Shown here one piece after another: positions 10,606-50,306 of a stretch of DNA of 64,000 nucleotides. The stretch comes from a virus. Lineage: Duplodnaviria > Caudoviricetes. The stretch is from the IMG/VR virus record IMGVR_UViG_3300028805_003982, one strand, 5' to 3'. Both the position numbers and the translations under genes were made by a program. The notes beneath the pieces were generated by a model, which did not search any database, was not told the DNA's origin, and saw only the letters and a list, made by a program, of their open reading frames with translations. How positions within the stretch are numbered: the first letter of the stretch is position 1; every line of letters starts with the position of its first letter.

Positions 10606-10684
10606 CCGTCTGCGGATCATCGGCAACAGTTGGCTGGATAAGTTAGAAGCGGAAAACAGCAATCGAATTCGGAGGTAAAAACGC

Positions 10685-11077
10685 ATGATTATTGACGAGT
10701 CTTTGTTAACACTCTTGGCAATCCTTGGTATCGCAATTATTCCCGCAATTATGGGAGTAGTTGGGTTGGTTAATCTATACGATAACCTCTCTATATATAA
10801 TGCCAAAGAAAATGTTGCTACTGTTTTGTGGGGGCTACTGATTGTCTGCGGGTTCTTTTTATGTGTTTTGTCATTCGCAAATTTCCATTGCGAAGAATTC
10901 CGTACAGATAAATATGATCTCGGTCGTATGGCTGTTGATTTTAAGATATCTCCGGAACCGACAAACGGAAGAGAACATATTACACATATGACCTTTTACA
11001 ATTTAGAATCTTGGTCATACTACGTCAAAGAGTACGATCCGGCTATGTCGGAATACCTTTTGGAGAACGAATCATGA
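10685..11077 (+). CDS. membrane protein
   Basis: GGAGG RBS; two hydrophobic helices. Confidence 0.65.
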   Translation: MIIDESLLTLLAILGIAIIPAIMGVVGLVNLYDNLSIYNAKENVATVLWGLLIVCGFFLCVLSFANFHCEEFRTDKYDLGRMAVDFKISPEPTNGREHITHMTFYNLESWSYYVKEYDPAMSEYLLENES

Positions 11078-11220
11078 AGGTTTTCCGCAAGACACGGGTA
11101 GTAGAGAAAACTGAGTTGATCCGAAAGATGGAAAGCAATCCATAAAATATTTTTCCTAAAACGACGGTTTTGGGGCCGCGTTTTCAAAATACCGATGTTA
11201 TACTAATGGTATACCAACGT

Positions 11221-11400
11221 CAACGACATTAAGTTAAGGGGTTGAGTAGCTCGACGAGGCGTAAGAGTTGCGGATAAGATGCTCCTAATAATAGCCGGAA
11301 TTGCTGTTTGAACCAGCCTTTGTAAGTTGCATCACTGATAAGCTCCGGCATCGCTGCAAGGTTCGAATCCTTGTCTTGACCCTTTAGCTTAATGACATTG
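11221..11400. mobile_element. 180-bp MITE with the same TIRs as 7907-9009, containing a tRNA-like RNA
   Basis: CAACGACATTAAGTTAAG / TTTAGCTTAATGACATTG ends; flanks ATACCAACGT vs ATACCCACAT (8/10 identical). Confidence 0.7.
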
Positions 11401-11428
11401 ATACCCACATAAAACAGGAGACAATCAG

Positions 11429-12733
11429 GTGAAGAAGAGCCGTTTAAAGAAGGGTTATACGAAAAAGGGTTATGTGTTCAGACTGTACCCTGACGATTCA
11501 CAAAAACATTTCATCAAGCGGTGCTGCAACGCAGCTGCCATTGTGTATAACATAGCTCTTCAAAACGATAAAGAAAAGCGAAAGAAGGCCCGCGAAGAAG
11601 GCGCAAAATACAGGTATAGCGCATTTGATGCGGCTAAAGAGATCAGGGTGCTGAAAGACACTCCTGATGAAAACGGGAACTTCCCTTATGGTTGGTTCAA
11701 CGAATTAGACAGCCGTTTGTTCGGTTTCGCGGCAGCTGATCTTGAATTTGCGTGGGATCGTTATTATGCGAATAAAAAAGAGCACGGATTTGATCGTAAG
11801 CATCCGAATAAATATAAACCCAAATTTAAAGATATTAAGTCTTGTGAAAAATCATACTCGACCAATAGTCATATTAAAATCATTGACGGTCAGTATATCC
11901 AGCTTCCCAAGATGAGTCCGATACGCATGATCATGCATCGTCCGTTGCCTGAGGGGGCTGCCATTACCAAGGTGACAGTATCCATTACTAAGTCCGGAGA
12001 GTATTATGCGTCGATCTCATTAACGCTGCCTGAACAGATCCTGCCTAATGACGGTGGAATGGTCGGTGTTGATGTGGGTATCAAGGAATACTATTGTGAC
12101 AGTAATGGAAACCAAGTCGATAATCCTAAGTTTTTAGCAAAAGCTGATAAGATAATGCGCCGCAGACAGAGAATGCTTTCCCGTAAAGAAAGGCTGCATA
12201 TTATCGGGTACACCTGTAAAAAGGGTGACTTGTCTGATATGGTGCCGAAGCAGGATAAGAAACATAAGTATCCGGTATATGATAGGCCTCTTGAAGAATG
12301 CAGGAACTATCAGAAGGATAAGCAGAAGGTTGCGAAGACACATGCAAAAGTGACCAGACAGCGTGCTTATTTCCAGGATATCGAAAGCCTTAAACTTGCA
12401 AAGGAAAACCAGTTGGTCTGTATGGAACATTTAAGAATACAGAATATGCAGAAGAATCATAAGCTGGCAGGAGCTATCTCAGACGCGGCATGGTACCAGT
12501 TTAAATCCAAGGTGGAATATAAGGTTAAAGAGCATGGCGGAGTACTTGTGTCGATCCCTACTTTTTATCCTTCTTCTCAAACCTGTTCTGAGTGCGGGTA
12601 CCGTAATCCGCTGGTTAAGAACCTGAGTGTTCGTAAATGGACATGTCCTACGTGCGGTACAAAGCACGATCGCGACATAAACGCCGGGAAGAATATCCTG
12701 GCAAAGGGTTTGGAAATGCTTGAGGGCGCGTAA
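11429..12733 (+). CDS. tnpB: TnpB/Cas12f-like RNA-guided nuclease, CRISPR-associated
   Basis: FRLYP start, RuvC-I GVDVG, RuvC-II CMEHL, Zn finger CSECG/CPTCG, RuvC-III HDRDINA; D-E-D triad intact; AGGAG RBS before GTG. Confidence 0.92.
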   Translation: MKKSRLKKGYTKKGYVFRLYPDDSQKHFIKRCCNAAAIVYNIALQNDKEKRKKAREEGAKYRYSAFDAAKEIRVLKDTPDENGNFPYGWFNELDSRLFGFAAADLEFAWDRYYANKKEHGFDRKHPNKYKPKFKDIKSCEKSYSTNSHIKIIDGQYIQLPKMSPIRMIMHRPLPEGAAITKVTVSITKSGEYYASISLTLPEQILPNDGGMVGVDVGIKEYYCDSNGNQVDNPKFLAKADKIMRRRQRMLSRKERLHIIGYTCKKGDLSDMVPKQDKKHKYPVYDRPLEECRNYQKDKQKVAKTHAKVTRQRAYFQDIESLKLAKENQLVCMEHLRIQNMQKNHKLAGAISDAAWYQFKSKVEYKVKEHGGVLVSIPTFYPSSQTCSECGYRNPLVKNLSVRKWTCPTCGTKHDRDINAGKNILAKGLEMLEGA

Positions 12734-12778
12734 CCCGGGCATTTATCACAAACCATTGAAACTTGAAAATCAAATAAC

Positions 12779-12937
12779 AGTGTAGGGAGGTTGGCCCCCG
12801 AACACTATAAAAGAACTCAAACCTTAACGGTTTGAAAAACGCTTGCGGAGACTCTAACATTGTAGCCGTACACCAAGGGCAGTGCCCGTACGGAGCGAGG
12901 TAGTCGATGAAACAAGAATCTATGTGTAAATAATTGA
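12779..12937 (+). ncRNA. omegaRNA/tracrRNA-like scaffold, copy 1
   Basis: Immediately 3' of tnpB; ACGCTTGCGGAG...TCGATGAAACAAGAATC resembles TnpB omegaRNA; paralogous to 13086-13226 with compensatory changes. Confidence 0.75.
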
Positions 12938-12938
12938 C

Positions 12939-13039
12939 GGTTCAGACCTATTTGGTTTTGCACAGTTGTCAAACAAACGCGAGGTAAATCTTAAGTTCTT
13001 TAGGGTTCAGACCTGTTTGGTTTTGTAAAGTTGTCGAAC
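12939..13039 (+). CRISPR. mini array A: 2 repeats (GGTTCAGACCTRTTTGGTTTTGYAMAGTTGTCRAAC), 1 spacer of 29 nt
   Basis: Repeats at 12939-12974 and 13004-13039; first repeat 26/36 identical to array B repeat with the same GTTGTCAAAC end. Confidence 0.7.
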
Positions 13040-13085
13040 AAACCACTGTTAATAAAATACGAAACTTGATAATTGAATAACGATC

Positions 13086-13226
13086 AGAGTAGGGAGGTTG
13101 GCCCCCGAACTCTTTAAAAGAAAACGCCTGCAGAGATTCTAACATTGCAGCTATACATCATGGACTTTGTCTGTATAGAGCGAGGTAGTCGATGAAGCAG
13201 GAATCAAGTGTAAACCAAACCGTTGA
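13086..13226 (+). ncRNA. omegaRNA/tracrRNA-like scaffold, copy 2
   Basis: Second copy; 3' AGTGTAAA is complementary to TTTACACT in the array B repeat. Confidence 0.75.
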
Positions 13227-13227
13227 G

Positions 13228-13461
13228 GTTTGAGAACATCATGTTTTTACACTGTTGTCAAACAGAGTGATTGCGTTCTTGATTTCTTCAGCAGTTTGAG
13301 AACATCATGTTTTTACACTGTTGTCAAACCTCTCCTGAACTTCGCGTGTCTCGGCCTGAGTTTGAGAACATCATGTTTTTACACTGTTGTCAAACCTGTG
13401 CCGCTTACCGCCCAGCCAGCAAGTTGTTTGAGAACATTATGTTTTTACACTGTTATCAAAC
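13228..13461 (+). CRISPR. array B: 4 x 36-nt repeats GTTTGAGAACATCATGTTTTTACACTGTTGTCAAAC, 3 x 30-nt spacers
   Basis: Repeats at 13228, 13294, 13360, 13426 (last has 2 mismatches); unique spacers 13264-13293, 13330-13359, 13396-13425. Confidence 0.95.
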
Positions 13462-13533
13462 AAACCGTGTTATAATAATTAAGTAGGTAACCAACAAGGA
13501 TACCTACAAAAGAACCTTGATAATTATCATATA

Positions 13534-13707
13534 TCCTCCGCGCTAGTGCATTGTTTATGCTTAAACTCAGTTTGTTAGACTGTATTATCCCCTTTCAATT
13601 CTATTGCAAAGCGTTTATTACTAATATCATAGTGGTTTACATTGTTTTGTATTTAATTGATCTATCTTGCGTAAACAAGCCCGGTGCGATTCCGGGGCGG
13701 AGGACCA
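13534..13707 (+). ncRNA. tRNA-like RNA with tmRNA-type topology
   Basis: CCTCCGC/GCGGAGG acceptor plus ACCA, T-arm CCCGG-TGCGATT-CCGGG, TTGTTTATGC/GCGTAAACAA helix enclosing about 110 AT-rich nt. Confidence 0.55.
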
Positions 13708-13894
13708 TTGGGGTTACAGCTCTTGCCATAAGTTGTAAGTCTCCAGTTTTATGTTGTTGTTGTGTAATTCTTTAGTTTCTTTTTACGATCCTCTTGCCAT
13801 GGGATTGTGCCTTCTAAATAATAGGGAATACCGCCTAAAGGATTATTACGTAACCAATCGTACCCTTTGCGCCGGGGATAGAGGCGTTTTGATA

Positions 13895-13969
13895 CGCAGG
13901 GATGTGCAGCGGATGCATAACGGGCCCATAACCCGAAGGCGGCAGGTTCGACTCCTGCTCCTGCAACCA
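13895..13969 (+). tRNA. tRNA-iMet(CAT)
   Basis: C1:A72 mismatch, GGG/CCC anticodon stem, CCA. Confidence 0.8.
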
Positions 13970-13976
13970 GATGCAT

Positions 13977-14052
13977 GGGTCAGAAGGCACAATGGGGTGC
14001 CGCGTGCCTTGCAAGCATGAAATGGCGGGTTCGATTCCCGTGTGATCCACCA
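13977..14052 (+). tRNA. tRNA-Ala(TGC)
   Basis: G3:U70, loop CTTGCAA, CCA. Confidence 0.8.
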
Positions 14053-14182
14053 AGGAAGTGAGGATCAAAGTGTGCAACAAACCGTAAGGGTTTATAGGAA
14101 GGTGGCTTGTCCTTATAGACGTGAGATCTTCCGACTTAGCAGTTCTGATGCCGTTCGCGGCGGTGCACACGCTGCCAAATCC

Positions 14183-14258
14183 ACCCGTATAGCTCAGCCG
14201 GGAGAGCGCCTGCCTTACAAGCAGGATGTCGGGGGTTCGAACCCCTCTGCGGGTACCA
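14183..14258 (+). tRNA. tRNA-Val(TAC)
   Basis: Cloverleaf, loop CTTACAA, CCA. Confidence 0.9.
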
Positions 14259-14448
14259 GATGCATCATACGGAAGGTTTCGTCACCCGTATGTAAAAACC
14301 TGAGGGTAAGGTCCTAAGTGAAACGAAACCGCTTAGGAATAGCGCAGGACAGTTAGCCCAGGTGTGGCCTATTCTCCGCGGAGATATAAAGCCCGTGCTT
14401 ATAGATTCCGCTGCGCATTTAATAATACAGAAATAAGGAGCATTCATT

Positions 14449-14757
14449 ATGTATTGCAAGCAATTCCAAGATATCATCGATTGCATAGGCATTGATGAAC
14501 CCTTTTATGTCATAAACGGAATGTATGAAGCACGTCTTATGGAAACCCGTGAAGGTGATATCCGCCTTGACATGTATGTCGTACTTGAGAAGCAACAAAA
14601 TGAAGTCATATCACGCGTAGTCAACCCATCTGATACATGTGATCTTGATATTGAACCTATGAAGAAAACGCAAAGACGGAGTTATTTCAATCAGTGGAAG
14701 CATCCGAATGAAAGACATGGCTTTTCTGAAGATACTTCTTCAAATATTTCTTTATAA
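14449..14757 (+). CDS. hypothetical protein
   Basis: AAGGAG RBS. Confidence 0.65.
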   Translation: MYCKQFQDIIDCIGIDEPFYVINGMYEARLMETREGDIRLDMYVVLEKQQNEVISRVVNPSDTCDLDIEPMKKTQRRSYFNQWKHPNERHGFSEDTSSNISL

Positions 14758-14812
14758 GTCTTATTCAAACGTCTTTAAGTATTTCCAAAACACATGATAG
14801 GAGAAGACTGAA

Positions 14813-15145
14813 ATGAATGAAGTTTTGAGTTATGATCAGTTAACCGACGAAGCGTTAGATCTGGATTCTTTTGATAACTTTCTGGTTAAGGACAAGAAGC
14901 GTATTGCCAGACGCCGGAAGAACATTACAAAGGCTCTCCGTAAGCGTTCGATCACTCGTCAATATGGTGTTTATGACGGCACTGACTGGTACAACAATCT
15001 GCACCAGTACAGCAAGAATAAGATACATTGTTCCTGCCAGATGTGTGCTTTCAATAACAAGAGGGCTCGTCGTAAGGAGTATACCTTGAGTGACCTCAAA
15101 AAGCTCGAATATGTAAGGTCACAGTTGGACGACTGGGCTTGTTAA
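14813..15145 (+). CDS. basic hypothetical protein with HCSCxxC motif
   Basis: AGGAG RBS; SKNKIHCSCQMC. Confidence 0.7.
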   Translation: MNEVLSYDQLTDEALDLDSFDNFLVKDKKRIARRRKNITKALRKRSITRQYGVYDGTDWYNNLHQYSKNKIHCSCQMCAFNNKRARRKEYTLSDLKKLEYVRSQLDDWAC

Positions 15146-16433: not shown

Positions 16434-16500
16434 AATTTAGGTAACAAATCTAAATTTTTATGTTATAATGCAATTGATGAAATAGAAAAGGAGAAGATGC

Positions 16501-21485: not shown

Positions 21486-21575
21486 GGCAAAAAACACCTG
21501 TTGAAAAATAAAATTTAGAAAATTACGATTTTTCTGTTGTATTTTTAAAATGTGGTGTTATAATAGTAAGTGATG

Positions 21576-31680: not shown

Positions 31681-32250
31681 ATGAAGTTTTATATATCTGA
31701 CACGCATTTTGGCCACAAGAATATCATGAGGTTTGACGGAAGACCTTGGATGGATGTTTCTGCAATGGAAGAAGACATGATCTGTCTTTGGAACAAGGCC
31801 GTCCGTAAATCCGACGAAGTCTATATTTTAGGAGACCTGTGCTGGGGCACTGCAGATGACTGGCGCAAGCTTGTTCCAAAGCTGCACGGTAAGAAGTTCC
31901 TTATTACAGGTAATCACGATCTTAAGCAGATCCCTGAAGATGTCCGTAAGATGTTTGTCGGTATTAGTGGGTATAAGGAGATCCGTGACGGCGATTATAA
32001 CATAATTATGAGTCATTACCCCATTTTGGCTTATAAGCATGACATAGATCCCAATACTTTGATGCTTCACGGCCACGTTCACAATACCGATGAGTTTCAG
32101 GCGGTTAAAGAGGCCGTAAAAACGATGAAGGAGTGCTGCGAGGTAAAGGGGTATCAGTATAGGGGCAGACTCTATAACTGCTGGTGCGGTTTTTACGGTT
32201 GGGCTCCGACAACCTTGAACGGGATATTAACCAATAAGCTTAACCACTAA
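31681..32250 (+). CDS. phage-type metallophosphoesterase
   Basis: SDTHFGH, LGD, GNHD, HYP, HGHVH. Confidence 0.9.
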   Translation: MKFYISDTHFGHKNIMRFDGRPWMDVSAMEEDMICLWNKAVRKSDEVYILGDLCWGTADDWRKLVPKLHGKKFLITGNHDLKQIPEDVRKMFVGISGYKEIRDGDYNIIMSHYPILAYKHDIDPNTLMLHGHVHNTDEFQAVKEAVKTMKECCEVKGYQYRGRLYNCWCGFYGWAPTTLNGILTNKLNH

Positions 32251-36273: not shown

Positions 36274-37072
36274 AAGGCGGTGCGGAATGAATTTTATTGA
36301 TTTTCTTTCACAAAGATTTGAAACAGAGCTTGAAGGGCCGCTGCAATTTGGTGATGAAGTTATAGATGAATACGGTATCAAAGCCGTAGTGGTTCGAGAT
36401 CCCTATCCGCTCGGTTCTGATAAGGAGCTTTTTACCTTAATCTATTATGGAAGGATTTTGTCTTCGACATGCGTCAGAAATCTTAAAAAGACCGGGAAAA
36501 GTTATGCTAAAGAACTTAATACAATTTTTAACGGATTGAAGGAAGGCGGTGTGGAATGAAATGTCCTAAATGCGGTGCTGATATGGTTTGGATGGGTAAT
36601 GTCCAAATCTTGATTAAAGATACAGATAAATACCTTCATCGATTATCCAAGAAAGCATTTCGTAGTAAAGATATTCAATTGTTGGGAGTTGATTGGAGCA
36701 AAGGCGATTTATATTGTCCTAACTATTTACAGTGTGGAAATCATCCAATATTGAAAGGCGATGCGAAATGACTAACGCAGAAAAGTATGAAGAAGTTTTT
36801 GGATTTAAGCCAGCATATGTTTGTCCAACTTGTACTTGTTCAAATTGTCCTATCGGCTTAATTACTTGTCAGATGAATAAGTATGCGTTGATACCAATAG
36901 CGAAGTGGTGGAATGAAGAATATAAAGGTGGTGCAAAATGAAAGGCGGTGTGGTTGCAAATGCTACATGTTGGGAGTGCAGTTCACGCGGAATGGTTTCT
37001 TGTAAAACAAGTTTAGTCAAGAAAGTTGACTTTTAGTCAAGGAATTAGTCAAGGAAAAAGAGGCAGAGAGAT

Positions 37073-49456: not shown

Positions 49457-50306
49457 GTAACTCCGGAAGTGGTAACGAAATTGCTCGAATGCGAGCAACC
49501 TGATTTGTGAAAGAGAGGTATTTGATGTGGCAGTTTACGTTTTAAGAGACAGAGACAGCAAGGCATGTGACATCACGGCTATCCTTTTCACCGGGAAGAG
49601 CGCTGATGACATAGACAAGGTTGTTTGTGACGTTAAGAACATGCATCCGGATGATTACACTTTTGACGATGTTAAGAGTGAACTCCAGAAGATGGACCCG
49701 ACCATCCGCATCCTGGAGGCATCATCGGATTACAAGGAGATCTACTGGTAGCCCCTGACACCAGGGCTATATCGGGCTCATTAACAGCAGGAGGGAAATA
49801 TGGATAACGAAGTAATGACAGCAGACATCGAGATCGTTTCTCGTTCGGTAATATCAGACAAGGACGCTATGGCTTTTCTTTTGTCAGAGAGCCTTTGCGG
49901 AGATATGGAAGCAGAGCCTTTTGGCTGATCGGAGGTTTAGATATGGGGGATATTAAGGTATATTACATTGACTTTTACAGGATGATCTGCGACCTGATCC
50001 CCTTGAGGTCTGTTAAGATCACCGCGTCTTCGAAGGAGGACGCTCACCGGAAGGCTGAAAAGCTTGCTTTAGCCTGGGGTTATAACCCCGAGAAAATGGT
50101 GATACAAAGCACCGATACCCCGGTAAGTTATTATGATTCCAGACCCCGCATTCGTGAAGGAGACATAGAGTTTATATCCGGCAGTTAAATGTGAAATAAA
50201 AAAAGCCTGAAACGGCGGTATAACGGGACTTAGCGGAAGCCCCGTGTGTTATAATATACTCGTAGGATAACAACATAAAACTACTGTTTTTGAGAGGAGC
50301 TTTCTT

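What the first reader, a model, noticed from the sequence alone, without database searches (positions are those of the whole stretch)
12758..13263. One nuclease, two diverged scaffold-plus-array units in tandem
Seen: the unit (boxA-like GAAACTTGAWAATYRAATAA, scaffold, array) occurs twice, starting at 12758 and 13061. The scaffolds differ by compensatory changes: AGTGT/ACACT vs AGAGT/ACTCT, CTTG/CAAG vs CCTG/CAGG, CCGTAC/GTACGG vs CTATAC/GTATAG. Copy 1 has an extra TCAAACC/GGTTTGA hairpin. The two repeat types are only 26/36 identical. The copy-2 tail AAACCAAAC is complementary to GTTTGGTTT in the array A repeat, so it may pair with both repeat types. Inference: both RNAs have been under structural selection; the single-spacer unit could be a regulatory or fixed-target guide and the second the adaptive array.
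Basis: partly seen in the sequence, partly recalled or inferred. Interest (0 to 1): 0.8.

Follow-up and report, generated by a model that had tools for sequence, protein, structure and literature searches.

The report
One TnpB-like nuclease, two guide-RNA modules
A large phage-like mobile element carries a small TnpB-derived, CRISPR-associated nuclease followed by two intact copies of its guide-RNA scaffold, each fused to its own mini CRISPR array, which shows that such guide modules can multiply and be shuffled behind a single nuclease.

Summary
After a 434-aa TnpB-family gene (11429-12733) lie two tandem units (12758-13060 and 13061-13491). Each has a box, a 160-180 nt structured scaffold and a 36-nt-repeat array (1 and 3 spacers).

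The scaffold is this lineage's omegaRNA/reRNA. A covariance model built from 13 scaffolds also hits just past the stop codon of ordinary array-less TnpB genes. The CRISPR repeat is the 3' arm of the omegaRNA terminal hairpin plus the guide-adjacent GTTGTCAAAC. This is the RNA split published for TranC systems (Jin et al., Cell 2025).

Covariation is strong (89.7% of cells paired against 38-51% in slid controls). U1 and U2 differ at 13 of 64 paired sites: five compensated double changes, two wobble-preserving, one C.A mismatch. Both copies score as well as the single scaffolds of relatives.

Multi-module loci recur: 4 of 10 complete relatives carry 2-3 scaffolds. The closest relative has lost scaffold 2 but keeps B-type repeat remnants.

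The idea that unit 1 carries a fixed regulatory guide is not supported, because its spacer is not conserved and no target was found. Tail-repeat pairing is not clearly cognate.

The scan had noted this same stretch before, on the same genome only. Verdict: a new variant of a known kind.

The parts
11429..12733 (+). TnpB-family RNA-guided nuclease (434 aa, P0001), TranC-like, with a ~37-aa insertion between residues 255 and 293 relative to ISDra2 TnpB
   Evidence: Pfam HTH_OrfB_IS605, OrfB_IS605 and Cas12f1-like_TNB. NCBIfam guided_TnpB 250 bits, above its cut-off of 100. PDB: ISDra2 TnpB 1.5e-50, LaTranC 1.3e-40 with the LaTranC alignment spanning the insertion. D215, E333 and D416 are invariant in the clade. 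AGGAG lies 8 nt before the GTG start.
12758..12777 (+). Box 1 (GAAACTTGAAAATCAAATAA), containing a -10-like GAAAAT at 12765-12770
   Evidence: Direct repeat of 13061-13081. TTGAYAAT is conserved upstream of P1 in most relatives. The promoter reading is inference.
12779..12938 (+). Scaffold U1 (omegaRNA-homologous tracr part). P1 12779-12806; unit-specific inserted hairpin 12817-12835; P2 12842-12846 with 12912-12916; P2b 12850-12853 with 12902-12905; P3 12866-12871 with 12888-12893; anti-repeat TGTGTAAA 12923-12930
   Evidence: Covariance model R1 scores 155.1 bits over 12779-12974. Pair counts. Fold.
12939..13039 (+). Array A: repeat A1 12939-12974 (fused to U1; TTTGCACA 12957-12964 pairs with the anti-repeat), spacer 12975-13003 (29 nt), degenerate terminal repeat A2 13004-13039
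13040..13060 (+). Trailer A (AAACCACTGTTAATAAAATAC), a degenerate copy of trailer B. A promoter-like TTGTCG-16-TAAAAT lies at 13031-13058
   Evidence: Comparison with 13462-13483.
13061..13080 (+). Box 2 (GAAACTTGATAATTGAATAA), containing a -10-like GATAAT at 13068-13073
13086..13227 (+). Scaffold U2: P1 13086-13113, anti-repeat AGTGTAAA 13207-13214, tail AAACCAAAC 13212-13220, leader end TTGAG 13223-13227
   Evidence: R1 scores 169.9 bits over 13086-13263, the best of all copies. Also.
13228..13461 (+). Array B: repeats 13228-13263, 13294-13329 and 13360-13395 (identical) and 13426-13461 (degenerate terminal); spacers 13264-13293, 13330-13359 and 13396-13425 (30 nt each)
13462..13491 (+). Trailer B, containing the extended -10 promoter TGTTATAAT (13468-13476). 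It is identical in the relative L001
   Evidence: The motif occurs 5 times in the window against 0.94 expected, including in front of the tRNA operons. Identity in L001.
13512..13525 (+). Third copy of the box (GAACCTTGATAATT), not followed by a scaffold
   Evidence: family D6.

Best explanation
The locus is a TnpB-derived, CRISPR-associated nuclease system of the TranC kind, carried by a large tRNA-rich mobile element that is probably a huge phage. It has two paralogous guide-RNA modules in tandem behind one nuclease gene.

How each module is built (shown by homology and covariation):
- Each module is transcribed on the + strand.
- Its first 160-180 nt fold like this lineage's omegaRNA/reRNA: hairpin P1, long-range helices P2 and P2b, and a variable hairpin P3.
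- The terminal hairpin of the ancestral omegaRNA has been opened in its loop.
- The 5' arm of that hairpin is the anti-repeat (NGTGTAAA).
- The 3' arm (TTTRCACN) plus the guide-adjacent GTTGTCAAAC form the last 18 nt of the 36-nt CRISPR repeat.

How it most likely works (inferred):
- The first repeat stays fused in cis, so scaffold plus repeat 1 plus spacer 1 is a natural single guide.
- Later repeat-spacer units must pair in trans with a scaffold tail.
- Nuclease P0001 loads these RNAs and cuts DNA that matches the spacer next to a still unknown TAM/PAM.
- The likely targets are competing mobile elements.
- Both modules are intact and usable. They are not strictly orthogonal, because the unit-2 tail is predicted to pair with both repeat types.

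How the two modules arose (inferred): by duplication or allele recombination of whole modules at their repeated ends (repeat, trailer, box). This process recurs in the clade and can also delete modules.

New spacers are probably added at the scaffold-proximal repeat by a type II-A-like adaptation machinery supplied in trans (inferred).
For: Nuclease:
- TnpB domains and a conserved catalytic triad; closest solved structures are ISDra2 TnpB and LaTranC.

The scaffold is a structured RNA read from the + strand:
- On 13 scaffolds, 89.7% of cells pair against 38-51% when the partners are slid.
- 16 pairs carry changes on both sides, and 0 of 500 shuffles reach the observed values.
- Results are stronger still on 26 model-aligned sequences.
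- U.G pairs dominate P2b position 74-153 (11 of 13). These would be A.C mismatches on the other strand.

Homology to the omegaRNA:
- Model R1 hits directly after the stop codon of ordinary array-less TnpB genes, at E 1e-6 to 1e-3.
- Their 3' end is hairpin CCCCTGC-TTTA-GCTGTGGGG followed by AGTGTCAA and then unique DNA.

Both copies are intact:
- Scores of 169.9 and 155.1 bits compare with 116-168.6 bits for the single or array-bearing scaffolds of relatives, and with 42-107 bits for degenerate or short copies.
- Substitutions between U1 and U2 are compensated.
- The two changes unique to U2 at otherwise near-invariant positions (G69A, T85C) both keep an alternative helix P2'.

The arrangement recurs:
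- L010 and L058 have 2 scaffolds and L057 has 3, so 4 of 10 complete loci are multi-module.
- A module can also stand alone behind a promoter (L085).

Module loss:
- L001 has a 76%-identical nuclease and flanks that are 95-97.6% identical.
- It has one scaffold, but an A-type repeat is abutted by a truncated B-type repeat, followed by a B-type terminal repeat and the same trailer.

Array turnover:
- L013 equals L014 plus one extra scaffold-proximal spacer, behind an identical nuclease.

Type II-A geometry:
- 36-nt repeats, 30-nt spacers and the junction TTGAG/GTTT match the published GAG/GTTT type II-A leader-repeat junction (PMC5382924).
Against: - There are no expression data, so neither unit is shown to be transcribed or bound by the nuclease.
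- No protospacer was found for any spacer: not in the window, INPHARED or PLSDB, and not as exact 22-mers of the three array-B spacers in IMG/VR. The target class and the TAM are therefore unknown.
- Trans pairing rests on only 8 bp and is not clearly cognate: U1 tail x A -8.2, U1 tail x B -8.8, U2 tail x B -9.1 kcal/mol, with z scores of only -1 to -1.5.
- The compensated differences could have arisen while the two scaffolds served different nucleases in different genomes. The nuclease-plus-U1 region is a 74.5%-identical island inside 95-97.6%-identical flanks. Covariation therefore does not prove selection in the tandem state.
- The closest relative has lost scaffold 2, so that scaffold is dispensable.
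- No cas1, cas2 or cas9 was found among the 19 ORFs tested. The window's other ORFs and the rest of the element were not scanned.
Confidence: 0.7

Rival explanations
1. The tandem arrangement is a recent recombination scar. A diverged allele (nuclease plus scaffold U1 plus array A) was recombined in front of the resident scaffold U2 plus array B. Only one module works well with the present nuclease, and the other is a leftover that will decay or be deleted.
For: - The nuclease-plus-U1 block is 74.5% identical to L001 while both flanks are 95-97.6% identical. Identity recovers inside array B, at window position 13378.
- L001 has lost scaffold 2.
- The stems of U2 match those of L002 at 22 of 24 P1-P3 pairs, whereas they differ from U1 at 6 pairs. 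This hints at a separate history.
- L001's own scaffold is a mosaic: a U1-like core, a U2-like tail and an A-like repeat 3' half.
Against: - Both scaffolds keep every clade-invariant position, and both score at the top of the clade.
- Core identity is U1-U2 85%, above U2-L002 at 77%.
- Multi-module loci occur in three other sub-lineages, so the state is not fleeting.
- Scaffold cores stay 74-81% identical to U1 in relatives whose nucleases are only 42-58% identical to P0001. Cross-compatibility is therefore plausible.
Confidence: 0.22
2. The modules have divided their labour. Unit 1 carries a fixed regulatory or self-directed guide, and unit 2 is the adaptive immune array.
For: - Array A has one spacer, a degenerate second repeat and a non-canonical leader junction (TTGAC/GGTT).
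- Array B has three identical repeats and the type II-A junction TTGAG/GTTT.
- Distant relatives L010, L057 and L058 carry an unsplit omegaRNA module followed by an identical 16-nt segment, TGTCCTCCGAAATCGA. Their scaffolds have diverged and their nucleases are only 59% identical. Fixed-guide modules may therefore exist in the clade.
Against: - Spacer A1 is not conserved in L001, whose first spacer is unrelated.
- It has no match with up to 4 mismatches in its first 20 nt in the 64-kb window.
- The only longer match is a 13-nt match to the spacer's 3' (scaffold-distal) end at 36507, roughly 0.03-0.1 expected by chance.
- L017 has an A-like repeat array with 8 or more spacers, so A-type repeats are not inherently static.
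Confidence: 0.06
3. These are not guide-RNA modules. They are DNA-level repeats, such as right-end structures of an IS200/IS605 element amplified by slippage.
For: - The nuclease is a TnpB.
- IS605 ends carry hairpins.
- Some repeat-spacer units in relatives are tandem duplicates (L013, L014, L017).
- One spacer in L057 resembles the scaffold's 3' part.
Against: - G.U-type covariation fits only RNA read from the + strand.
- The period is a regular 65-66 nt with unique 29-30-nt spacers.
- A relative shows polarised spacer gain.
- No TnpA lies in the adjacent ORFs, and the nuclease is single-copy in the window.
- The scaffold is homologous to the downstream omegaRNA region of ordinary TnpBs.
Confidence: 0.02

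Closest known systems
TranC (transposon-CRISPR intermediate) systems, e.g. LaTranC; Jin et al., Cell 2025 (doi 10.1016/j.cell.2025.09.004). The paper is not held; it is known here through PMC13565253, PMC13639567 and bioRxiv 10.64898/2026.03.27.714800
   Same: - A TnpB-sized nuclease next to a CRISPR array.
- A guide RNA that is an omegaRNA/reRNA split into a tracr part and a crRNA.
- An insertion in the RuvC bridge-helix region that the LaTranC alignment spans. The preprint describes TranC clade 3 as ISDra2-like with an enlarged bridge helix and repeats of 32 or 36 bp.
- Phage carriage has a precedent in CauTranC9.
   Different: - The N-terminal half does not align with LaTranC, and the numbered clade could not be determined.
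- Here there are two (in relatives up to three) complete scaffold-plus-array modules per nuclease.
- The first repeat is fused to the scaffold.
- Some relatives combine split and unsplit modules in one locus.
- I found no description of this in the texts I could read. The primary paper was not readable, so prior description cannot be excluded.
IS200/IS605 TnpB with its omegaRNA/reRNA (ISDra2 TnpB; PDB 8h1j, 8bf8, 8exa)
   Same: - The best solved-structure match after an AI-designed nuclease (E 1.5e-50).
- The same catalytic triad.
- The scaffold lies downstream of the gene and is homologous to the omegaRNA of ordinary relatives, ending in hairpin plus GTGTCAA plus guide.
   Different: - No TnpA and no recognisable transposon ends nearby; the gene is single-copy in the window.
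- The guide is supplied by CRISPR spacers instead of flanking DNA.
- A 37-aa insertion is present.
- The score is below the cut-off of the NCBIfam IS200_TnpB model (326 against 425).
Cas12f (type V-F) and Cas12n tracrRNA-crRNA guides
   Same: - A miniature RuvC nuclease.
- A tracrRNA of 100-200 nt between the gene and the array, with several stem-loops.
- A final anti-repeat:repeat stem followed by a few unpaired bases before the guide (description).
   Different: - The protein matches Cas12f only weakly, and only in the C-terminal zinc-finger domain (E 2e-6 to 3e-4).
[quoted passage not shown]
- The protein is much closer to TnpB.
Cas9 loci with a second or alternative tracrRNA, natural single guides (tracr-L) and scaRNA
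   Same: One nuclease served by more than one scaffold RNA. A second tracrRNA has been suggested for some Cas9 loci (bioRxiv 10.1101/2020.09.02.279885). A natural single guide autoregulates Cas9 (bioRxiv 10.1101/2020.05.21.102756, listed).
   Different: - A different nuclease family.
- There the extra RNA has no array of its own. Here each scaffold carries its own array with its own repeat type.
- No regulatory target was found here.

Membership tests
TnpB superfamily (RNA-guided endonuclease TnpB family, NF040570) | HTH, OrfB/RuvC and zinc-finger TNB domains, with a score above the curated cut-off | tested here: met
   All three Pfam domains score above their cut-offs. NF040570 scores 250.5 bits against a cut-off of 100.
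TnpB superfamily (RNA-guided endonuclease TnpB family, NF040570) | RuvC D-E-D catalytic triad | tested here: met
   D215, E333 and D416 are invariant in the 14-sequence clade alignment. They align with the DVGIK, TEHL and HDRDEN motifs of ISDra2 TnpB.
IS200/IS605 transposon-borne TnpB | Score above the cut-off of the IS200_TnpB model (NF038281) | tested here: not met
   326.1 bits against a cut-off of 425.
IS200/IS605 transposon-borne TnpB | Transposon context: an adjacent TnpA, or several copies with defined ends | tested here: not met
   The adjacent ORFs have no Pfam hit, so no Y1 transposase. tblastn finds a single copy in the 64-kb window. The rest of the element was not available.
TranC (transposon-CRISPR intermediates) | A TnpB-like nuclease closer to TnpB than to any Cas12 subtype, encoded next to a CRISPR array | tested here: met
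   PDB ranking is TnpB 1.5e-50, then LaTranC 1.3e-40, then Cas12f at or above 2e-6. Arrays with a 65-66 nt period lie directly downstream, here and in all 11 related nuclease variants fetched.
TranC (transposon-CRISPR intermediates) | The ancestral reRNA is split into a tracrRNA with an anti-repeat and a crRNA repeat | tested here: met
   Tested in silico only. The scaffold is homologous to the omegaRNA of array-less relatives. The terminal hairpin arms correspond to the anti-repeat and the repeat 3' part. Helix 5 has 3 of 8 pairs with double changes on the independent alignment, and 8 of 8 on the model-fitted one.
TranC (transposon-CRISPR intermediates) | Placement in one of the numbered TranC clades of Jin et al. 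2025 | not testable with these tools
   The paper and its sequences are not held, and the preprint's supplement is not held. Only LaTranC (PDB 9jfo) could be compared. It aligns over residues 212-432 only.
TranC (transposon-CRISPR intermediates) | DNA cleavage guided by both crRNA-tracrRNA and reRNA | not testable with these tools
   This needs biochemistry.
Cas12f (type V-F) | Sequence membership in the Cas12f family | tested here: not met
   Cas12f chains match only residues ~345-429, at E 2e-6 to 3e-4. No Cas12f model appears among the NCBIfam hits.
Type V-U2 (c2c8) | Score above the cut-off of the NF038192 model | tested here: not met
   105.2 bits against a cut-off of 350.
Type II-A-style CRISPR array (as substrate for adaptation) | 36-nt repeat, ~30-nt spacers, leader-repeat junction GAG/GTTT | tested here: met
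   Array B has 36-nt repeats, 30-nt spacers and the junction TTGAG/GTTT, which matches PMC5382924. Array A deviates with TTGAC/GGTT and a 29-nt spacer.
Type II-A-style CRISPR array (as substrate for adaptation) | Cas1, Cas2, Csn2 and Cas9 genes available in cis | tested here: inconclusive
   None were found among the 19 ORFs scanned (the nuclease, 8 neighbours and 10 further ORFs of 230 aa or more), and no ORF in the window exceeds 733 aa, so there is no Cas9. The window's remaining ORFs, including all short ones apart from the eight neighbours, the remaining ~170 kb of the element and the host were not searched.

The most novel reading that the evidence does not exclude
In this phage-borne TnpB/TranC clade the guide-RNA module (promoter box, omegaRNA-like scaffold, leader-like tail, array) behaves as an autonomous cassette that can be copied and exchanged.

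- One nuclease is routinely served by several diverged modules of different kinds.
- These kinds are unsplit omegaRNAs with a conserved fixed guide, split scaffolds with adaptive arrays, and two ancient repeat families (A-like, starting GGTYMAGACC, and B-like, starting GTTTRAGAAC).
- The repeat families may each be tuned to a different host adaptation machinery.

The window would then show a living stage in which the unsplit and split states of the same RNA coexist and are both selected. The nuclease-plus-module region would be an arms-race hot spot that is swapped between nearly identical phages.
Probability: 0.3. Interest if true: 0.75.

Novelty: new variant of a known kind. Interest (0 to 1): 0.62.

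Why it matters
TranC systems were published in 2025 as the missing step between transposon TnpB and type V CRISPR-Cas. The key event was the splitting of one guide RNA into tracrRNA and crRNA.

What this locus and its relatives add:
- The split sits in the loop of the terminal omegaRNA hairpin.
- The first repeat still keeps the RNA in one piece, so single-guide and dual-guide forms come from the same transcript.
- Whole modules multiply, diverge with compensated changes, recombine and are lost, all behind a single nuclease.

What becomes testable:
- How tolerant a TnpB-sized nuclease is to diverged scaffolds.
- Whether scaffold and repeat pairs are orthogonal, which bears on multiplexed compact editors.
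- Whether phages borrow host type II-A adaptation machinery.

The 74.5%-identical nuclease-plus-guide island inside 95-97.6%-identical genomes also marks the cassette as a fast-evolving competition locus.

Tried and rejected
**Searches that found nothing useful**
- Rfam at E up to 1 over 11000-15000 gave only tRNAs.
- INPHARED phages, searched by DNA with the whole locus, gave no match.
- IMG/VR, searched with the single protein, gave no relative. With the clade alignment it gave only ordinary 33-45%-identical TnpBs, which I used as an outgroup.
- The scaffold DNA pattern ACGCNTNNGGAGANTCTAACAT gave 0 hits in IMG/VR.
- The pattern CCGAACNCNNTAAAANNAAACGC gave 21, 27 and 2 stretches in GTDB genomes, JGI metagenomes and IMG/VR. 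Only one (L085) is a true scaffold by the covariance model. The clade is essentially confined to Logan and ENA assemblies.
- The look-up of encoding contigs could not return the window's own contig, and no whole genome is held.

**Protospacer searches, all negative**
- The window itself.
- INPHARED and PLSDB with both arrays, best E 0.5, which is chance level.
- The arrays of L013 and L017 against INPHARED.
- Exact 22-mers of spacers B1-B3 in IMG/VR.

**Readings I considered and rejected**
- The box as a 5' anti-repeat for the repeat's 3' end (TTGACAA against TTGTCAA). Rejected because the box stays constant where the repeats end in CTAAAAC (L010, L057). It is also absent from L085 and L057 S1.
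- Strict cognate specificity of each tail for its own repeat, suggested by the A/T swap at pair 173-219. The duplex energies do not bear it out.
- The conserved 16-mer after the unsplit modules of L010, L057 and L058. It has no second copy in any fetched locus. Its 10 IMG/VR hits sit in mostly unrelated contexts (two homologous pairs aside), about the number expected by chance.
- A relation of spacer A1 to the scaffold (a shared GCGAGGTA). It is too short to count.

**Literature**
- Jin et al. 2025 and the supplement of the structure-led preprint are not held.
Full report
**What is there.** The window comes from a large mobile element that is probably a huge phage. It carries 43 tRNA genes, an anaerobic ribonucleotide reductase, integrases, a UvrD helicase and TraX and PcfJ-like genes. 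At 11429-12733 (+) lies a 434-aa ORF with a good ribosome-binding site.

The ORF is a TnpB-family nuclease:
- It has the Pfam domains HTH_OrfB_IS605, OrfB_IS605 and Cas12f1-like_TNB.
- It passes the NCBIfam family model for RNA-guided TnpB (250 bits, cut-off 100). It fails the stricter IS200_TnpB model (326 against 425) and the c2c8 model (105 against 350).
- Its best natural solved relatives are ISDra2 TnpB (1.5e-50) and LaTranC (1.3e-40); only an AI-designed nuclease (9yyg, 6.7e-56) ranks higher. Cas12f chains match only the C-terminal zinc finger.
- Relative to ISDra2 TnpB it has a ~37-aa insertion between residues 255 and 293, which the LaTranC alignment spans.
- The RuvC residues D215, E333 and D416 are invariant in its clade.
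- No TnpA is adjacent, and the gene is single-copy in the window.

**The observation.** Directly after the stop codon come two tandem units.

| | Unit 1 | Unit 2 |
|---|---|---|
| Box | 12758-12777 | 13061-13080 |
| Scaffold | 12779-12938 | 13086-13227 |
| Repeats | A1 12939-12974; degenerate A2 13004-13039 | three identical at 13228, 13294, 13360; degenerate fourth at 13426-13461 |
| Spacers | one, 29 nt | three, 30 nt |
| Trailer | 13040-13060 | 13462-13491 |

The one wrong label is 'boxA-like'. The motif is TTGAYAAT.

**The scaffold is a conserved structured RNA.** The database of 5.8 billion proteins holds a small clade of relatives at 42-76% identity (P0002-P0014). Below that there is a gap down to ordinary ~363-aa TnpBs at 40% or less. 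I fetched the DNA for eleven of these nuclease variants. Every one has the same scaffold right after the stop codon, followed by a 36-nt-repeat array.

I tested a hand-drawn structure on an independent MAFFT alignment of 13 scaffolds. It comprises hairpin P1, long-range helices P2 and P2b, variable hairpin P3, and helix 5 between the scaffold tail and the first repeat.
- 89.7% of cells pair, against 38-51% when the 3' partners are slid by 1-3 columns.
- 16 pairs change on both sides, against 4-8 in the slid controls.
- No shuffle out of 500 reaches the observed values.
- U.G pairs, for example in 11 of 13 sequences at one P2b position, fit RNA read from the + strand only.

**The scaffold is the lineage's omegaRNA, and the repeat is its 3' end.** A covariance model built from that alignment gave the following:
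- the two window copies at 169.9 bits (U2) and 155.1 bits (U1);
- the single scaffolds of relatives at 116-169 bits;
- degenerate or short copies at 42-107 bits;
- hits at E 1e-6 to 1e-3 immediately after the stop codon of ordinary, array-less TnpB genes from IMG/VR phages.

Those ordinary omegaRNAs share P1, the GCTTGTGGA...GAAGCAAGAATC core, and a terminal hairpin (for example CCCCTGC-TTTA-GCTGTGGGG) followed by AGTGTCAA and then unique flanking DNA. In the window the equivalent is TGTGTAAA, then a 26-nt loop, then TTTGCACA, then GTTGTCAAAC, then the spacer.

So the CRISPR repeat is the enlarged loop plus the 3' arm plus the guide-adjacent adaptor of the omegaRNA. The scaffold tail is the anti-repeat. 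This is the functional RNA split reported for TranC systems (Jin et al., Cell 2025). I know that work only through PMC13565253, PMC13639567 and bioRxiv 10.64898/2026.03.27.714800. The first repeat remains fused to the scaffold, so scaffold plus repeat 1 plus spacer 1 is in effect an unsplit guide. Later repeats need trans pairing.

**Are both copies alive?**
- U1 and U2 differ at 13 of 64 paired sites and 23 of 109 unpaired sites, so the rates are similar.
- In the stems, five differences are compensated double changes and two keep a wobble. The single non-pair, C.A in U1, is shared with the closest relative.
- U2 deviates from two otherwise near-invariant positions (G69A, T85C). Both changes keep or improve an alternative five-pair helix P2', which also forms in U1, L001, L002, L012, L017 and L057 S2.
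- Each consensus-constrained fold is within 0.7 kcal/mol of the unconstrained minimum.
- Neither copy looks decayed, and array B has three identical repeats.

The differences could have accumulated while the two scaffolds served different nucleases in different genomes.

**History.** The closest relative, L001, has a nuclease 76% identical to P0001. Its flanks are 95-97.6% identical to the window, but the nuclease-plus-scaffold block is only 74.5% identical. Identity recovers inside array B, at 13378. The cassette is therefore a hyper-divergent island in nearly identical genomes.

L001 has one scaffold (core identity 91% to U1, 82% to U2; U1-U2 is 85%). Its array is a mosaic:
- a first repeat with a B-like 5' half and an A-like 3' half;
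- an A-type repeat abutted directly by a truncated B-type repeat (TTTACACTGTTGTCAAAC);
- a B-type terminal repeat and a trailer identical to the window's.

The common ancestor therefore most likely had both units, and L001 deleted scaffold 2. Whether the two units arose by in-situ duplication or by recombination between diverged alleles cannot be decided. The trailer, box and repeat are repeated at the module boundaries (13040 and 13462; a remnant TTATCACAAACC also precedes unit 1) and would favour either route.

**Recurrence.** Multi-module loci occur in 4 of 10 complete loci.
- L010/L011 have two scaffolds, L058 has two, and L057 has three.
- In L010, L057 and L058 the last module is a short, unsplit omegaRNA followed by the identical 16-mer TGTCCTCCGAAATCGA. 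Their scaffolds have diverged and their nucleases are 59% identical. No target for this 16-mer was found.
- L085 is a scaffold-plus-array module standing alone behind a phage promoter, with no nuclease gene immediately upstream.

The module thus behaves as a cassette.

**Pairing specificity.** The A/T swap between TGTGTAAA/TTTGCACA (unit 1) and AGTGTAAA/TTTACACT (unit 2) is a compensated change between each tail and its own repeat. The duplex energies, however, do not show orthogonality.

| Tail x repeat | kcal/mol |
|---|---|
| U1 tail x A1 | -8.2 |
| U1 tail x B | -8.8 |
| U2 tail x B | -9.1 |
| U2 tail x A1 | -14.1 |
| L001 tail x A-type | -18 to -19 |

Strict cognate pairing is not shown.

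**Adaptation and targets.**
- L013 equals L014 plus one additional scaffold-proximal spacer, behind an identical nuclease. L012 keeps only older spacers. This is the signature of polarised acquisition.
- The arrays have type II-A geometry: 36-nt repeats, 30-nt spacers, GTTT...AAAC ends.
- The tail ends in TTGAG directly before GTTT in unit 2 and most relatives. This matches the conserved type II-A leader-repeat junction GAG/GTTT (PMC5382924). Unit 1 has TTGAC/GGTT.
- From this I infer that spacers are acquired with a type II-A-like machinery supplied in trans, and that array B is the better substrate.
- No cas gene was found among the ORFs tested.
- No protospacer was found anywhere, so target and TAM remain unknown. 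Spacers B2 and B3 are 60-63% GC against 44% for the window, which suggests foreign targets.

**Expression signals (inference).**
- The box contains a -10-like GAYAAT whose spacing would start transcription at the base of P1.
- Trailer B carries TGTTATAAT, an extended -10 motif enriched in this element and placed in front of its tRNA operons.
- Trailer A carries a degenerate copy and a TTGTCG-16-TAAAAT match.
- No terminator separates the gene, unit 1 and unit 2.
- Read-through and separate initiation are both possible.

**Verdict.** The system is a TranC-like, TnpB-derived CRISPR system, which is a known kind. The tandem, diverged and recurrent guide modules, including fused first repeats and, in relatives, unsplit modules beside split ones, are a new variant as far as I could read. 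The fixed or regulatory reading of unit 1 is not supported by what could be tested.

Noticed in passing
L010:4558-4701, L057:4450-4580, L058:1871-1995: The last module in these relatives is a short, unsplit omegaRNA (short terminal hairpin, no array). It is followed by the identical 16-mer TGTCCTCCGAAATCGA, although the scaffolds have diverged and the nucleases are only 59% identical. The 16-mer could be a conserved fixed guide or one arm of a conserved hairpin (TCCTCC/GGAGGA vs GTCCTC/GAGGAC). No target was found in the fetched loci, and the 10 IMG/VR hits look like chance.
   Followed up: partly
window 11401-13377 vs L001:3973-5615: The nuclease gene plus first scaffold is a 74.5%-identical island between flanks that are 95-97.6% identical in two otherwise near-identical elements. 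This suggests cassette swapping or very fast evolution of this locus.
   Followed up: partly
L057:4184-4213: The first spacer of the L057 array (GTGAAAAATATTGCGGTCGATGAAATAAGA) resembles the conserved 3' part of the scaffold itself (GTCGTTGAAATAAGA; GTCGATGAA in the window). It is either a spacer against a rival element's guide-RNA gene or a trace of array growth by partial scaffold duplication.
   Followed up: no
L085:515-870: A scaffold plus 4-repeat array stands alone behind a phage-type promoter (TTGAAA...TATACT), with no box and no nuclease gene immediately upstream (1039-nt JGI contig). It is the only true hit of the scaffold pattern in the JGI, GTDB and IMG/VR collections.
   Followed up: partly
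L012:4437-4760, L013:4437-4995, L014:4437-4930: Three contigs encode the identical nuclease but differ in their spacer sets. L013 equals L014 plus one extra scaffold-proximal spacer, and L012 keeps only older spacers. One repeat-spacer unit is tandemly duplicated in L013 and L014. Polarised acquisition and recombination both act on these arrays.
   Followed up: partly
window 13468-13476, 16461-16469, 21556-21564, 50247-50255 (+), 31994-32002 (-): TGTTATAAT (an extended -10) occurs 5 times against 0.94 expected, four times on the + strand. One copy lies in the trailer of array B. It is probably the element's standard promoter. The copy after array B would drive the RNA and tRNA genes downstream.
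   Followed up: partly
window 10619-11131 and 11219-11400: These two segments upstream of the nuclease gene are absent from the otherwise collinear L001. They include a 130-aa ORF (10685-11077) with no Pfam hit and a structured ~180-nt element just before the gene.
   Followed up: no
L017:5140-5177: An array of eight or more A-like repeats (starting GGTCAAGACC) ends with a single B-like repeat (GTTTGAGAACTGG...GACCAAAC). The two repeat families of the window therefore coexist in a relative whose nuclease is only 42% identical.
   Followed up: no
window 12813-12834 and L043:3636-3657: The unit-1-specific hairpin sits in the P1-P2 linker, the same place where an ordinary TnpB omegaRNA (L043) carries an unrelated extra hairpin. 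Its sequence (CAAACC...GGTTTGA) resembles the unit-2 tail/repeat-B junction hairpin, and its 5' arm CTCAAACC is complementary to the 5' end of repeat B.
   Followed up: partly
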